Shown piece after piece: positions 36,999 through 39,769 of a stretch of 64,000 bases of DNA. This DNA is from Escherichia coli (GTDB lineage: Bacteria > Pseudomonadota > Gammaproteobacteria > Enterobacterales > Enterobacteriaceae). Made by a program: the position numbers and the translations under genes. The notes under the pieces are model-generated. The model did no database searches. It was given only the letters and a program-made list of their open reading frames with translations, and was not told the origin of the DNA. The stretch is taken from NCBI RefSeq assembly GCF_003334815.1, contig NZ_QOWO01000004.1. The stretch is one strand, 5' to 3'. Position 1 is the first letter of the stretch; the number at the start of each line of letters is the position of its first letter.

Positions 36999-37075
36999 CG
37001 GCACGTAGCGCAGCCTGGTAGCGCACCGTCATGGGGTGTCGGGGGTCGGAGGTTCAAATCCTCTCGTGCCGACCA
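36999..37075 (+). tRNA. proL: tRNA-Pro (anticodon GGG)
   Basis: 77-nt sequence CGGCACGTAGCGCAGCCTGGTAGCGCACCGTCATGGGGTGTCGGGGGTCGGAGGTTCAAATCCTCTCGTGCCGACCA: cloverleaf with GGG anticodon, TPsiC-loop GGTTCAAATCC, encoded CCA end. Confidence 0.95.
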
Positions 37076-37087
37076 AAAATCCCAAGA

Positions 37088-37118
37088 AAAAACCAACCCT
37101 TACGGTTGGTTTTTTTAT
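37088..37118. terminator. Bidirectional rho-independent terminator between proL and yejO
   Basis: AAAAAA-AACCAACC-cttac-GGTTGGTT-TTTTTTT; A-run and T-run on both flanks. Confidence 0.7.
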
Positions 37119-37177
37119 ATCTGCAATTAATTCGATAAACAGACCGTGACACATCACAGCCTGTTTATTTTCTGTTA

Positions 37178-39769
37178 TCAGAACGTCCAGACCACACCCG
37201 CCTGAGTATTCCACGGCGATTCTACCCCTGCGCCATTGCCATAGCTGACTGACAAATGACCGCTTAACGTCGGGGTAAACGATGACCTTATACCAGCCTG
37301 ATAAACGCCACTGGTTCCAGCCACATCATTATTAAATTTGCCATCGTCATTAACTTTCACCTGGTTAGAATCGGCGTATTCCTGACGCACGGCCGCTTTC
37401 AGCCAGGGTTCCAGCGTCGTACCGTTTTGCAGGTCCATGTGATAGCTTACCGCCGTTCCCGCTTCAGCGCGTAATATCCGGGTATTTCCCACATCCGCGC
37501 GCATGCCGTTTGATAACGTGTAGTCCTGACCATCTGTGGTAAAGCCGGTAAAGGCCAGATAGGGTCTAACACTCCACAATCCGTCAACCCAACGGAACCC
37601 GCTCTCAACATGAGCACCCGCGCCGTTACTATTGTAATCGCCAAACGCTGTTGCCCCATTACTCATCTTGCCATGGATGGTGTTGGCAAAACGGTCAACT
37701 TTCACCACCCCATCAACATAGGCACCGTTCTGATGCTCCCAACCGGCATAAGCCCCCAGGGTATAGCTATCGATATTACCTTTGCCGCCGCGATCAAAAC
37801 CAATATCAGAATGAGAGTAACCAAAGATCAAGCCGCGAATTGTACTGCTTTCTTCACGGGAGAAACGGCTATCGATACCGAGCGTCAGGCCCGTCAATGT
37901 TTGCTCAAAACCAGCTCCCGCATCAGTGGTCACGTTGTTGCGGGTGTTAATTGCCGAACTCCACATCGCCGTATCGTAACTAACGCCTTTTACGCTACCA
38001 AGACGCTCACGCACGGTGTCCAGTTCTGCATCAAATACCAGCGGTTGTGCGGCCGCCATATTCAGCACATCAGTGGTTGAAGGGGTAATTTGCGCGCGAT
38101 TCTCTGCCAGACTCCAGCTATGGTTGCCATTATCCAGCAAGGTATATTCATACGTACCGATATCAACAACGCCTCCGGCATTGCCCAACGTAAATGCAGC
38201 ATCACCGCCGCCCGTTGTTACCAGTGTAAGGCTATCTCCTGCTGCCGGGCTGGCACCGGTGTCCGTCACGAATATTTTGAAATCACCTGTTGCCTGACCG
38301 GTGACGTTGAGCTGATCGCTCTGATGATTAGCCATATCGGTACGCATATAAAAATTGCCGTTTCCCGACAGGGTATTGGTGGTCAACGTAATGAAATTTT
38401 CCGCACTTGCCGTCACTGATGAACGAGTCACTGGCTCATCCATCATAATCACATTTGCGTCAGACATCGCAAGGTTGGCTAAGTTGAGGAGGGTGTTTTG
38501 GTTCGTCGTAGTGATATCGGCAATGATGGTCCATACGCTATTTTCGAGCGAAACGTCCGCTTTGCTGGTATCCACGGCACCATGCGTTCTAAAAGAAGCG
38601 CCCTCAGAAACCACTACCTTACCCACCAACATTGCGGGTGCATAATTTATTTGCGGCTTCATGACCTCAAGAATGCCATCATTCCCTCTGACTGAAACGT
38701 TAACCATTGTGCCAGCCCAGACGTTAGCGCGGCCATTGTTGATAACCATATTTTCAGAGATGGCTTTTGAGGAATACGTGATACTTCCATTCTGATATGA
38801 TCGACCGAGATCATATACCGCATTTGCCTGCACTTTCGTACCAGTATCCTTTCCCAGCGATTGCATAGTGGCATGCTTATCAAGGATAGTATCAATGGCC
38901 TGCGTGTCCTCCATAACAATGAGCCCGGAACCATCATCCAGTTCATAATTTTTTGACACACCATCTTTTATACTAAATTGGCCTTTACTGTTTGGACCAC
39001 TCACTTCCAGCGCATTCGTTGAGACAATTAATTTTCCGCCTGCTTTTTTATCAACGCCAGTTACAGTCCCGCCATCCATAACCTCCAGTAAGCCGCCACT
39101 ATCTACAGTGGTATTATAAGCGAAGTCATTTTCTTCAACTCGCAAACTTCCGCCGTTTTCCAACAACATATTATTAGCAATACCATTCTTGATATCGAAC
39201 TGACCGAGACGGTTTGTTCCGAATACCTCCATGGCCCGCGTGGTTGTTTTAATAGCACCGCCTGCTTTCTGATCTACCGCAAATGCAAATCCCCCCTCTT
39301 TAACCTCCAGTAGTCCTCCCTTTTCGATAGCGACAAAGACGGCCCCCCCATCTTTTTCAACGATTAAGCGCCCGCCTTTAATCGTGGTATCATTCGCTGC
39401 GCCATAAACCTGTAGCACACCATTATTGAGCGTAGTCTGGTTTGCCGCGCCACCCATTTGAACAATTTGATAACCGTCATTTAATACTGAGTATTCTGCG
39501 GCGCCATTCATTTCAATGTACTGATACCCTCCGTTAATTTCAGTATTATTACTTACACCAAATTCTTTTATATGCTGTTCTCCGCCAGGATTGATTTTCG
39601 TATTATTGGCGGTCCCATAAACCAGCTGGATATCTTTTTCCAGGACAACACCATCAACTGTCTCACCATACTCAACAGTTGATGCCAATGCTATGGGTGA
39701 ATATAACGCTGTAGCCACCAGAACAGATATTGCGGAACGACAAAGAGAAACAGAACCAGATTGATGCAT
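37178..39769 (-). CDS. yejO: Autotransporter adhesin-like outer membrane protein YejO (intact 863 codons)
   Basis: 863-aa ORF with N-terminal signal peptide, Gly/Asn/Thr-rich repetitive passenger and C-terminal beta-barrel ending in F; lower GC than flanking genes. Confidence 0.85.
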   Translation of the reverse strand: MHQSGSVSLCRSAISVLVATALYSPIALASTVEYGETVDGVVLEKDIQLVYGTANNTKINPGGEQHIKEFGVSNNTEINGGYQYIEMNGAAEYSVLNDGYQIVQMGGAANQTTLNNGVLQVYGAANDTTIKGGRLIVEKDGGAVFVAIEKGGLLEVKEGGFAFAVDQKAGGAIKTTTRAMEVFGTNRLGQFDIKNGIANNMLLENGGSLRVEENDFAYNTTVDSGGLLEVMDGGTVTGVDKKAGGKLIVSTNALEVSGPNSKGQFSIKDGVSKNYELDDGSGLIVMEDTQAIDTILDKHATMQSLGKDTGTKVQANAVYDLGRSYQNGSITYSSKAISENMVINNGRANVWAGTMVNVSVRGNDGILEVMKPQINYAPAMLVGKVVVSEGASFRTHGAVDTSKADVSLENSVWTIIADITTTNQNTLLNLANLAMSDANVIMMDEPVTRSSVTASAENFITLTTNTLSGNGNFYMRTDMANHQSDQLNVTGQATGDFKIFVTDTGASPAAGDSLTLVTTGGGDAAFTLGNAGGVVDIGTYEYTLLDNGNHSWSLAENRAQITPSTTDVLNMAAAQPLVFDAELDTVRERLGSVKGVSYDTAMWSSAINTRNNVTTDAGAGFEQTLTGLTLGIDSRFSREESSTIRGLIFGYSHSDIGFDRGGKGNIDSYTLGAYAGWEHQNGAYVDGVVKVDRFANTIHGKMSNGATAFGDYNSNGAGAHVESGFRWVDGLWSVRPYLAFTGFTTDGQDYTLSNGMRADVGNTRILRAEAGTAVSYHMDLQNGTTLEPWLKAAVRQEYADSNQVKVNDDGKFNNDVAGTSGVYQAGIRSSFTPTLSGHLSVSYGNGAGVESPWNTQAGVVWTF

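What the first reader, a model, noticed from the sequence alone, without database searches (positions are those of the whole stretch)
36999..39769. yejO autotransporter sits immediately beside tRNA-Pro (proL) with lower GC content
tRNA genes are common integration sites; the 2.6-kb adhesin-like yejO gene is visibly more AT-rich than its neighbours and is separated from proL by a bidirectional terminator. This suggests a small, old horizontally acquired islet, although no integrase or direct repeat of the tRNA 3' end is visible.
Basis: inference. Interest (0 to 1): 0.3.

Follow-up and report, generated by a model that had tools for sequence, protein, structure and literature searches.

The report
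Old Escherichia-only adhesin gene beside proL
yejO is an intact, ordinary autotransporter adhesin gene that the Escherichia lineage gained long ago in the short gap between the proL tRNA gene and narP; it shows no sign of tRNA-directed integration, so it is a routine lineage-specific gene, not a new kind of element.

Summary
tRNA-Pro(GGG) lies at 36999-37075, followed by a strong bidirectional terminator hairpin (37086-37116). An intact 863-aa yejO lies on the minus strand (37178-39769). yejO is moderately AT-rich (GC 48%, GC3 46.5%, against neighbour means of 53% and 58%), mostly in its 5' 1.2 kb.

Comparison with 80 enterobacterial species shows that yejM-proL is conserved everywhere. A YejO homologue follows proL only in Escherichia. 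Two Citrobacter genomes have an "empty site" with 207 bp between proL and narP. This bounds an Escherichia-specific segment at about 37129-39977 (2.85 kb).

So "old acquired islet" is supported. "tRNA-integration islet" is not:
- The left border lies 53 bp past the tRNA, beyond the terminator.
- There is no integrase, no direct repeat and no attR remnant.
- Genuine proL-targeting elements occupy about 11% of E. coli genomes, and in those examined they insert between proL and yejO.

yejO sequence is present in 99.9% of 5426 E. coli genomes, and degraded to a deletion remnant in about 21%. It is syntenic in E. albertii and under purifying selection (dN/dS 0.21). It is a classical AIDA-I-type type Va autotransporter. 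Ordinary; low interest.

The parts
36999..37075 (+). proL, tRNA-Pro (anticodon GGG). Its 3' end (about 37057-37075) is the crossover site used by integrase-bearing elements in other strains.
   Evidence: ARAGORN; Rfam RF00005, 54.9 bits. It is 100% identical in most of the 78 enterobacterial loci that have a proL hit. Breakpoints of occupied sites fall at 37057-37074.
37086..37116 (.). Bidirectional intrinsic terminator hairpin of proL (A-run, CCAACC/GGTTGG stem, T-run). It belongs to the conserved core, not to the yejO segment.
   Evidence: Fold dG -15.7 (+) and -15.4 (-) kcal/mol, z -4.5 and -2.7. Inverted repeat I8. Conserved in the Citrobacter empty sites and in Citrobacter and Salmonella loci.
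37129..39977 (.). Escherichia-specific segment (about 2.85 kb, borders within about 10 bp). It holds yejO, its 3' hairpin and its 208-bp 5' region, and is absent from the Citrobacter empty site.
   Evidence: Alignments A1 and A2 with Citrobacter L006 and L008: homology ends at about 37128 and resumes at about 39978. GC 0.470. Against E. albertii, identity drops to 75-87% inside the segment and is 89-94% outside it.
37135..37168 (-). Hairpin with a 15-bp stem directly after the yejO stop codon. It is probably yejO's own terminator, although the U-tract is weak.
   Evidence: Fold dG -19.5 kcal/mol, z -5.4, 0 of 200 shuffles as stable. Inverted repeat I4. A hairpin with a different stem sequence lies at the same place in E. 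albertii.
37178..39769 (-). yejO, intact 863-codon gene for an AIDA-I-type (type Va) autotransporter. Layout: signal peptide aa 1-29 (39683-39769), AIDA repeats aa 52-315 (38825-39616), pertactin-like domain aa 431-555 (38105-38479), beta-barrel aa 602-841 (37247-37966), C-terminal Phe.
   Evidence: ORF and translation. Pfam: PF16168 at 7.7e-24 and 1.5e-21, PF03212 at 3.2e-45, PF03797 at 8.8e-45. NCBIfam TIGR01414 at 2.4e-110. PDB relatives include Ag43, an AidA-I family adhesin, TibA, Vag8, BrkA and pertactin. Annotated as yejO.
39703..39706 (.). Position where IS5 interrupts yejO in K-12. It is not interrupted in this window.
   Evidence: Alignment of the window to a K-12 locus; K-12 annotation; PMC11005336 and PMC11677980.
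39770..39977 (-). AT-rich 5' region of yejO (uncharacterised promoter region). It is part of the Escherichia-specific segment.
   Evidence: The whole yejO-narP intergenic region has GC 0.36. This part has no counterpart in the Citrobacter empty site. It is 79% identical in E. albertii, against 94% for the adjacent narP-upstream core.
39978..40736 (+). Conserved narP upstream region (39978-40088) and narP (40089-40736). This is the right-hand core flank.
   Evidence: Homology to the Citrobacter narP upstream region resumes here. Annotated as narP.

Best explanation
yejO is a classical type Va (AIDA-I-type) autotransporter adhesin gene. It was added once to the short proL-narP spacer in an ancestor of E. 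coli and E. albertii, and has since been inherited vertically as part of the Escherichia chromosome.

How the protein works is inferred from family knowledge. A Sec signal peptide takes it to the periplasm. The C-terminal 12-stranded barrel inserts in the outer membrane. The beta-helical passenger, built of AIDA repeats with a pertactin-like autochaperone, is displayed on the surface as an adhesin.

The gene arrived with its own 3' hairpin and an AT-rich 5' region. It landed just past the proL terminator, not in the tRNA. The insertion mechanism is unknown; illegitimate recombination or a since-erased vehicle are both possible. Nothing shows that a tRNA-targeting integrase was used.

Since then the barrel has been kept under strong purifying selection and the passenger has diverged fast. 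The gene is dispensable: it is disrupted by IS elements (IS5, IS4, IS1) in some strains, reduced to a double-deletion remnant in about a fifth of E. coli genomes, and very poorly expressed in K-12.
For: Identity and architecture.

Gain in Escherichia:
- yejM-proL adjacency is conserved in all 78 loci that have a proL hit.
- A YejO-like sequence downstream of proL occurs only in E. albertii, even at E <= 1. 66 of those loci have at least 3 kb of sequence downstream of proL.
- The Citrobacter empty site has a 207-bp proL-narP spacer, and homology breaks at about 37128 and 39978.
- Every homologue of at least 75% identity that carries an organism name is from Escherichia.
- The nearest relatives outside the YejO cluster, among 1.84 billion representatives, are at most 45% identical.

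Age:
- E. albertii has the same layout, proL-terminator-yejO-narP.
- The synonymous AT bias is shared by both species.

Vertical core status in E. coli: yejO sequence is present in 5419 of 5426 genomes.

Selection: dN/dS is 0.21 overall, 0.065 in the barrel and 0.31 in the passenger, against 0.02-0.03 for yejM, narP and ccmH.

Decay:
- The barrel segment is missing in 1132 of 5426 genomes.
- The double-deletion remnants were mapped.
- IS5, IS4 and IS1 insertions appear.
- ST131 lacks the gene (PMC5654935).
- yejO ranks 4501st in the K-12 expression compendium (PMC10392735).

Not tRNA-directed:
- Border position.
- No direct repeat or attR remnant.
- Bona fide proL elements lie between proL and yejO; PMC4924310.
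Against: - The polarity (gain rather than loss) rests on parsimony and composition. No donor was found.
- E. fergusonii and the cryptic Escherichia clades were not specifically sampled.
- In most genera outside Escherichia and Citrobacter, narP was not found within 10 kb downstream of proL, so only a few genomes give a truly comparable empty site.
- One proL-targeting element family (Citrobacter sp. R56, L009) duplicates both the tRNA 3' half and a terminator copy. A terminator next to proL therefore does not by itself exclude an integrase route that later eroded.
- The compositional deviation is modest (z about -2), and core genes such as lpxT and mepS are more AT-rich overall.
- The adhesin function is inferred from homology only. 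No experiment on an intact yejO allele was found in the papers searched.
Confidence: 0.78

Rival explanations
1. First reader's model. yejO is the last surviving cargo of a genomic island that a tyrosine integrase inserted at the proL 3' end. The integrase and the attR direct repeat have since been deleted or mutated beyond recognition.
For: proL is a proven attB:
- About 11% of E. coli genomes have an element at 37057-37075, with an integrase next to the tRNA in the example examined.
- The same holds in E. albertii, and in Citrobacter sp. R56, where an integrase remnant and a 48-nt repeat are present.
- SPI-12 lies next to proL in Salmonella (PMC7143636), and the gtrIC prophage uses the site in S. 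flexneri 1c (PMC4924310).

Other Citrobacter species carry different small AT-rich cargos in the same gap. The R56 element carries its own terminator copy, so the order tRNA-terminator-cargo is compatible with this route.
Against: - No integrase fragment, no tRNA-derived repeat and no second terminator copy lie anywhere between yejO and narP. All matches are at chance level.
- The GGGG-repeat module that marks the tRNA-proximal end of the Citrobacter and Salmonella cargos is absent in E. coli.
- E. coli shares 6-7 further bases past the terminator with the empty-site Citrobacter.
- E. albertii, the most divergent carrier, shows no relics either.
Confidence: 0.15
2. yejO is ancestral to the Escherichia-Citrobacter-Salmonella group and was deleted in the other lineages. 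Its AT-richness reflects adhesin-type sequence and low expression rather than foreign origin.
For: Deletions in yejO are frequent within E. coli, so loss is easy. The proL-narP gap is a turnover hotspot.
Against: - It would require many independent, complete losses. 65 non-Escherichia species have no trace of the gene.
- The Citrobacter empty site has no room for a remnant. It consists of a 207-bp spacer made of the terminator, about 30 bp, and the narP upstream region.
- No homologue of 50-75% identity exists outside Escherichia.
- The bias is at synonymous sites (GC3 0.40 in the 5' 1.2 kb), not only in amino-acid content.
Confidence: 0.05
3. yejO arose inside Escherichia by duplication and relocation of a resident AIDA-type autotransporter paralogue, not by transfer from another taxon.
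For: E. coli carries several paralogous AIDA-type autotransporters (own knowledge: YpjA, YcgV, YfaL, Ag43). The best non-YejO relatives are only 40-45% identical and come from unnamed short contigs, so an enterobacterial paralogue cannot be excluded as the source.
Against: At no more than 45% identity, any such duplication would predate the genus. Yet the locus is empty in sister genera. The atypical synonymous composition argues for a foreign or long-silenced history. This was not tested directly, because whole E. coli proteomes could not be searched here.
Confidence: 0.07

Closest known systems
AIDA-I-type (type Va, self-associating) autotransporter adhesins: Ag43/Flu, AIDA-I, TibA
   Same: Same domain order: signal peptide, AIDA beta-helix repeats, pertactin-like autochaperone, PF03797 barrel and terminal Phe. 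Significant sequence matches to solved Ag43, AidA-I family and TibA passengers and to Vag8 and BrkA barrels.
   Different: YejO scores far below the NCBIfam equivalog cut-offs for Ag43 (131 against 1200 bits) and AIDA-I (74 against 1200). It is therefore a separate family within the type. The upstream region has no GATC sites that would suggest an Ag43-like Dam/OxyR switch (read directly from the sequence). No heptosyltransferase partner gene lies next to it.
tRNA-linked genomic islands at proL (Salmonella SPI-12; the S. flexneri 1c gtrIC prophage remnant)
   Same: Same chromosomal neighbourhood, next to tRNA-Pro downstream of yejM. AT-rich accessory cargo (PMC7143636, PMC4924310).
   Different: Those elements start in or at the tRNA 3' end and carry integrase or phage genes and att repeats. 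The yejO segment starts beyond the terminator and has none of these. In S. flexneri, yejO is the chromosomal flank that bounds the prophage.
Integrase-bearing phage satellites (P4-like or capsid-forming PICI-like) integrated at proL in E. coli, E. albertii and Citrobacter
   Same: They occupy the same intergenic interval.
   Different: They are 8-9 kb, with an integrase next to proL, primase or RepA helicase genes and, in the E. coli cases, terS and capsid genes. They have short core repeats (CTCTCGTGCC...) and variable presence, in about 11% of genomes. yejO lies outside them on the attR side.
Cryptic E. coli K-12 autotransporter genes (ypjA, ycgV, yfaL), poorly expressed adhesin genes (own knowledge)
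   Same: Chromosomal, AT-biased, poorly expressed (yejO ranks 4501st in the expression compendium, PMC10392735) and prone to inactivation.
   Different: yejO in K-12 is a pseudogene because of IS5, whereas it is intact in this window. A regulatory parallel (H-NS silencing) was not tested here.

Membership tests
Type Va (classical) autotransporter, AIDA-I type | N-terminal Sec signal peptide | tested here: met
   MHQSGSVSLCRSAISVLVATALYSPIALA|STVEY: a basic n-region, a hydrophobic core and an A-x-A motif at 27-29. This was read from the translation. No dedicated predictor was run.
Type Va (classical) autotransporter, AIDA-I type | Repetitive beta-helical passenger with AIDA repeats | tested here: met
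   Pfam PF16168 hits at aa 184-245 (7.7e-24) and 257-315 (1.5e-21), plus weaker copies from aa 52. TIGR04415 repeat at 3.8e-18. Matches to Ag43 and TibA passengers.
Type Va (classical) autotransporter, AIDA-I type | Pertactin-like autochaperone region before the linker | tested here: met
   PF03212 at aa 431-555, E 3.2e-45. Pertactin 1dab aligns at aa 368-558.
Type Va (classical) autotransporter, AIDA-I type | C-terminal 12-stranded beta-barrel domain ending in an aromatic residue | tested here: met
   PF03797 at aa 602-841, E 8.8e-45. TIGR01414 at 369.5 bits against a cut-off of 16. BrkA barrel 3qq2 aligns at aa 582-863. The protein ends ...VVWTF.
Type Va (classical) autotransporter, AIDA-I type | Surface display and adhesion or aggregation phenotype | not testable with these tools
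   No experimental report on an intact yejO allele was found. K-12 work treats the gene as a pseudogene (PMC11005336).
tRNA-integrated genomic island | Lies immediately beside a tRNA gene | tested here: met
   The yejO stop codon is 102 bp from the proL 3' end.
tRNA-integrated genomic island | Island border falls within the 3' end of the tRNA (attL) | tested here: not met
   Homology with the empty site continues through the tRNA and its terminator to about 37128, which is 53 bp past the tRNA. Genuine elements break at 37057-37075.
tRNA-integrated genomic island | Direct repeat of the tRNA 3' end at the distal border (attR) | tested here: not met
   The best matches to the 16-45 nt 3' segments, and to extended attB sequences, are at shuffle level. 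The repeat finder gives nothing relevant. As positive controls, repeats were found in Citrobacter L009, Salmonella L016 and L055.
tRNA-integrated genomic island | Integrase or other mobility gene | tested here: not met
   The segment holds only yejO. Integrases are present in the real proL elements.
tRNA-integrated genomic island | Atypical base composition | tested here: inconclusive
   GC3 z = -2.2. The segment is at the 6th percentile of same-size windows. The deviation is confined to the 5' half, and some core genes are lower.
tRNA-integrated genomic island | Patchy presence among related strains and species | tested here: inconclusive
   At genus level the criterion is met, since the gene occurs only in Escherichia. 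Within E. coli it is not met, since yejO sequence is in 99.9% of 5426 genomes.

The most novel reading that the evidence does not exclude
The proL-narP spacer may hold two distinct insertion points. One is the classical integrase attB in the tRNA 3' end. The other is an integrase-independent site just past the terminator hairpin, where yejO entered before the E. coli / E. albertii split. In addition, yejO alleles in some E. coli strains show synonymous divergence 3-7 times that of the flanking genes. This could mean that the passenger domain is kept diverse by introgression or balancing selection acting on a surface antigen.
Probability: 0.2. Interest if true: 0.3.

Novelty: already known. Interest (0 to 1): 0.12.

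Why it matters
It matters little beyond bookkeeping. The work gives base-level borders (about 37129 and 39977) and an approximate age (before the E. coli / E. albertii split) for a lineage-specific adhesin gene. It also shows that proximity to a tRNA, even a proven integration hotspot, is not evidence that a neighbouring gene arrived by tRNA-directed integration. In practice, yejO is a stable chromosomal flank that marks the attR side of proL-integrated satellites and prophages. Strains like this one carry an intact allele that could be used to test YejO function, which K-12 cannot provide.

Tried and rejected
1. A search for a partial repeat of the proL 3' end in 37076-41000 and in 39770-40088 gave only chance-level matches, both for the tRNA alone and for the tRNA 3' half plus terminator.

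2. An 11-mer identical to the tRNA D-arm (GCCTGGTAGCG, about 40024-40034), with an adjacent 6-bp hairpin, lies in the narP-upstream core. It is not conserved in Citrobacter, is not called by ARAGORN or Rfam, and has p of about 0.01 for the intergenic region alone. I treated it as chance.

3. An inverted repeat flanks yejO (37115-37137 and 39783-39805, 78% complementary). It is built around the palindrome AATTAATT, is expected by chance in 3 kb of AT-rich DNA, and its right arm is not at the segment border. I rejected it as transposon ends.

4. YejO proteins listed at 58-79% identity (P0074, P0097, P0017) looked like hypervariable alleles. At the DNA level they are 96-99% identical genes with internal deletions or frameshifts.

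5. An Rfam scan of 34500-41500 found no regulatory RNA in the yejO-narP intergenic region.

6. The consensus terminator scan did not report the proL hairpin. Folding was needed to show it.

7. A donor search in 1.84 billion representatives gave no relative between 45% and about 73% identity. The best outside hits come from unnamed short contigs, so the source taxon could not be named.

8. One literature search failed for lack of capacity. Another was polluted by the drought index 'SPI-12' and was repeated with whole-word matching.
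Full report
**What is in the window.** The window is E. coli chromosome. It differs at 6 of 44,001 positions from strain ML35. The local gene order is yejK(-), yejL, yejM (35164-36924), proL, yejO(-), narP (40089-40736), then the ccm and nap operons. ARAGORN finds one tRNA, tRNA-Pro(GGG), at 36999-37075, and Rfam agrees. The 863-codon ORF at 37178-39769 on the minus strand is annotated as autotransporter YejO. It is intact here. In K-12, IS5 sits at about 39703-39706 (PMC11005336, PMC11677980).

- Between proL and yejO lies A6-CCAACC-loop-GGTTGG-T7 (37086-37116). It folds well on both strands (dG -15.7 and -15.4 kcal/mol, z -4.5 and -2.7), so it is a bidirectional terminator.
- A second hairpin with a 15-bp stem (37135-37168) follows the yejO stop codon (dG -19.5, z -5.4).
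- yejO has GC 0.482 and GC3 0.465. The other 39 genes of the window average 0.531 and 0.583 (z -1.6 and -2.2).
- The bias is concentrated in the first 1.2 kb of the gene (GC 0.446, GC3 0.395) and in the upstream intergenic region (0.36). The barrel-encoding half is host-typical.
- The bias is real but modest. The 2.85-kb segment is at the 6th percentile of same-size windows, and the lpxT-mepS region is lower.
- There is no integrase and no repeat of the tRNA 3' end.

**What the gene encodes.** Pfam gives AIDA repeats (aa 52-315; best hits 7.7e-24 and 1.5e-21), a pertactin domain (aa 431-555, 3.2e-45) and the autotransporter beta-domain (aa 602-841, 8.8e-45). NCBIfam gives the generic barrel model but misses the Ag43 and AIDA-I equivalog cut-offs by a wide margin. 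Solved relatives are Ag43, AidA-I family and TibA passengers and Vag8, BrkA and pertactin. The N-terminus reads as a Sec signal peptide ending ALA|ST, and the protein ends in Phe. It is a standard type Va AIDA-type adhesin-like autotransporter. The secretion mechanism is inferred from the family and was not tested.

**Comparative test of the islet idea.**
- A YejM-anchored scan of one genome per species returned 80 loci from more than 20 enterobacterial genera.
- proL follows yejM in all 78 loci that reach that far. 66 of them have at least 3 kb downstream of proL and 57 have at least 9 kb.
- A YejO-like sequence, even at tblastn E <= 1, occurs only in E. albertii.
- In two Citrobacter genomes (L006, L008), narP starts 207 bp after proL. 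This is an empty site.
- Aligning it with E. coli shows continuous homology through proL and the terminator up to about 37128. Homology resumes at about 39978, in the narP upstream region.
- The Escherichia-specific segment is therefore about 37129-39977. It holds yejO, its own hairpin and 208 bp of AT-rich 5' region.
- Other Citrobacter species hold unrelated AT-rich cargos of 1.3-3.5 kb in the same gap. One looks like a colicin with its immunity gene (judged from the sequence only). Another has an integrase remnant with a 48-nt proL repeat. The interval is a turnover hotspot.

**Age and fate.**
- E. albertii without an insert (L086) has the same order, proL-terminator-yejO-narP.
- Nucleotide identity to E. 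coli is 89-92% for the flanking genes. It is 87% for the barrel, 86% for the middle, 75% for the passenger and 79% for the 5' region.
- dN/dS is 0.21 overall, 0.065 in the barrel and 0.31 in the passenger, against 0.02-0.03 for yejM, narP and ccmH. The gene has been functional and constrained, with a fast-evolving surface part.
- E. albertii yejO shows the same synonymous AT bias (GC3 0.418).
- Within E. coli, a retained yejO segment is present in 5419 of 5426 complete genomes.
- The barrel segment and the central passenger are each present in only about 4295 genomes.
- The other 21% or so carry remnants with two deletions: 37208-37836, plus 38294-39297 or 38214-39367. An in-frame shorter allele also exists.
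- This fits the reported absence of yejO from ST131 (PMC5654935) and the gene's near-bottom rank in a K-12 expression compendium (PMC10392735).
- Some E. coli alleles (L091, L093) have yejO synonymous divergence 2-7 times that of the flanking genes. In L091 the neighbouring ccm genes are also unusually divergent, which suggests regional recombination.

**Was the tRNA the entry point?**
- proL is certainly an active attB. The proL-yejO junction is uninterrupted in 4825 of 5426 genomes. In about 601 it is split at 37057-37073.
- The inserts examined are satellites of about 8-9 kb with an integrase next to proL, a primase or RepA helicase and, in E. coli, terS and capsid genes. They have short core repeats.
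- The S. flexneri 1c gtrIC prophage is likewise bounded by tRNA-Pro and yejO (PMC4924310). SPI-12 lies at proL in Salmonella (PMC7143636).
- In every case examined, yejO sits outside the element, on the attR side together with the terminator.
- The yejO segment itself begins beyond the terminator and has no relic of an att repeat, arm-type repeats or an integrase.
- One caveat applies. The Citrobacter sp. R56 element duplicates the tRNA 3' half and also a terminator copy. The order tRNA-terminator-cargo is therefore not decisive alone, and an eroded integrase-mediated origin cannot be excluded.

**Origin.** No donor could be named. Every homologue of at least 75% identity that carries an organism name is from Escherichia. 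Beyond the YejO cluster, the best full-length relatives among 1.84 billion representatives are 40-45% identical and come from unnamed short contigs.

**Verdict.** yejO is an old, lineage-specific addition, but it is a fixed part of the Escherichia chromosome rather than a mobile islet, and nothing ties its arrival to tRNA-directed integration. The gene, its family and the proL hotspot are all known. The finding is ordinary.

Noticed in passing
window 37057-37075; loci L002, L095 (E. coli), L017 (E. albertii), L003 (Escherichia sp.), L012 (Citrobacter): The proL 3' end is occupied in about 11% of 5426 E. coli genomes. The inserts examined are satellites of about 8-9 kb carrying an integrase, a RepA helicase or primase and, in E. 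coli, terS and a major capsid gene (capsid-forming PICI-like or P4-like). The sequence directly after proL is nearly identical in Escherichia sp. L003 and Citrobacter L012, which suggests one element family crossing genera.
   Followed up: partly
L004, L007, L013, L014, L016, L009, about 55-105 nt after proL: A conserved module of about 50 bp, with three or four GGGG(A/T) repeats at a spacing of about 11 bp (e.g. TGTACGGGGAAGCAATGGGGAATTATCGGGGAAAAACCCC), follows the proL terminator in Citrobacter and Salmonella genomes that carry cargo. It is absent from the empty-site Citrobacter genomes and from E. coli. It may be a set of arm-type integrase binding sites of a proL-targeting element family.
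   Followed up: partly
L013 12557-14255 (Citrobacter amalonaticus S646): The proL-narP gap holds a 464-aa protein whose C-terminus looks like a pore-forming colicin domain, next to a 99-aa hydrophobic protein that may be an immunity protein. The segment is 3.0 kb with 40% GC. This was judged from the sequence only; no profile search was run.
   Followed up: no
window 40737-40946: The narP-ccmH gap contains an insertion of about 176 bp made of REP/BIME-type palindromes (sub-threshold Rfam hits to naRNA4 and ES036 at 40811-40893). It is flanked by two copies of the hairpin AGCCCGATGG...CCATCGGGC. Strain WS1933D has only a 34-bp gap with a single hairpin, so the insertion is polymorphic.
   Followed up: partly
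window about 39990-40015 and the equivalent Citrobacter positions: The conserved narP upstream core contains heptamer-like elements (TACCCAT ... ATGGGGTA in Citrobacter, ...ATGGGGTAAC in E. coli) that resemble NarL/NarP TACYYMT sites (own knowledge). This could indicate nitrate-responsive or autoregulatory control of narP.
   Followed up: no
window 40024-40034: An 11-mer identical to the proL D-arm (GCCTGGTAGCG) is followed by a hairpin, GTAGCG-TTACCAA-CGCTAC. It is not conserved in Citrobacter and is not recognised as tRNA-like by ARAGORN or Rfam. It is probably chance.
   Followed up: yes
L086 14415-17139 (E. albertii): E. albertii carries three extra genes between yejK and rplY (a multihaem cytochrome c, an FAD-binding flavoprotein and a small cytochrome c3-like protein). 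E. coli lacks them at this position.
   Followed up: no
L091 (E. coli GCA_032210145.1): This is a mosaic locus. yejM is 98.8% identical to the window, but the yejO passenger is 84.7%, dsbE 94.3% and ccmF 91.4%. That suggests import of a divergent Escherichia segment spanning yejO to ccm.
   Followed up: partly
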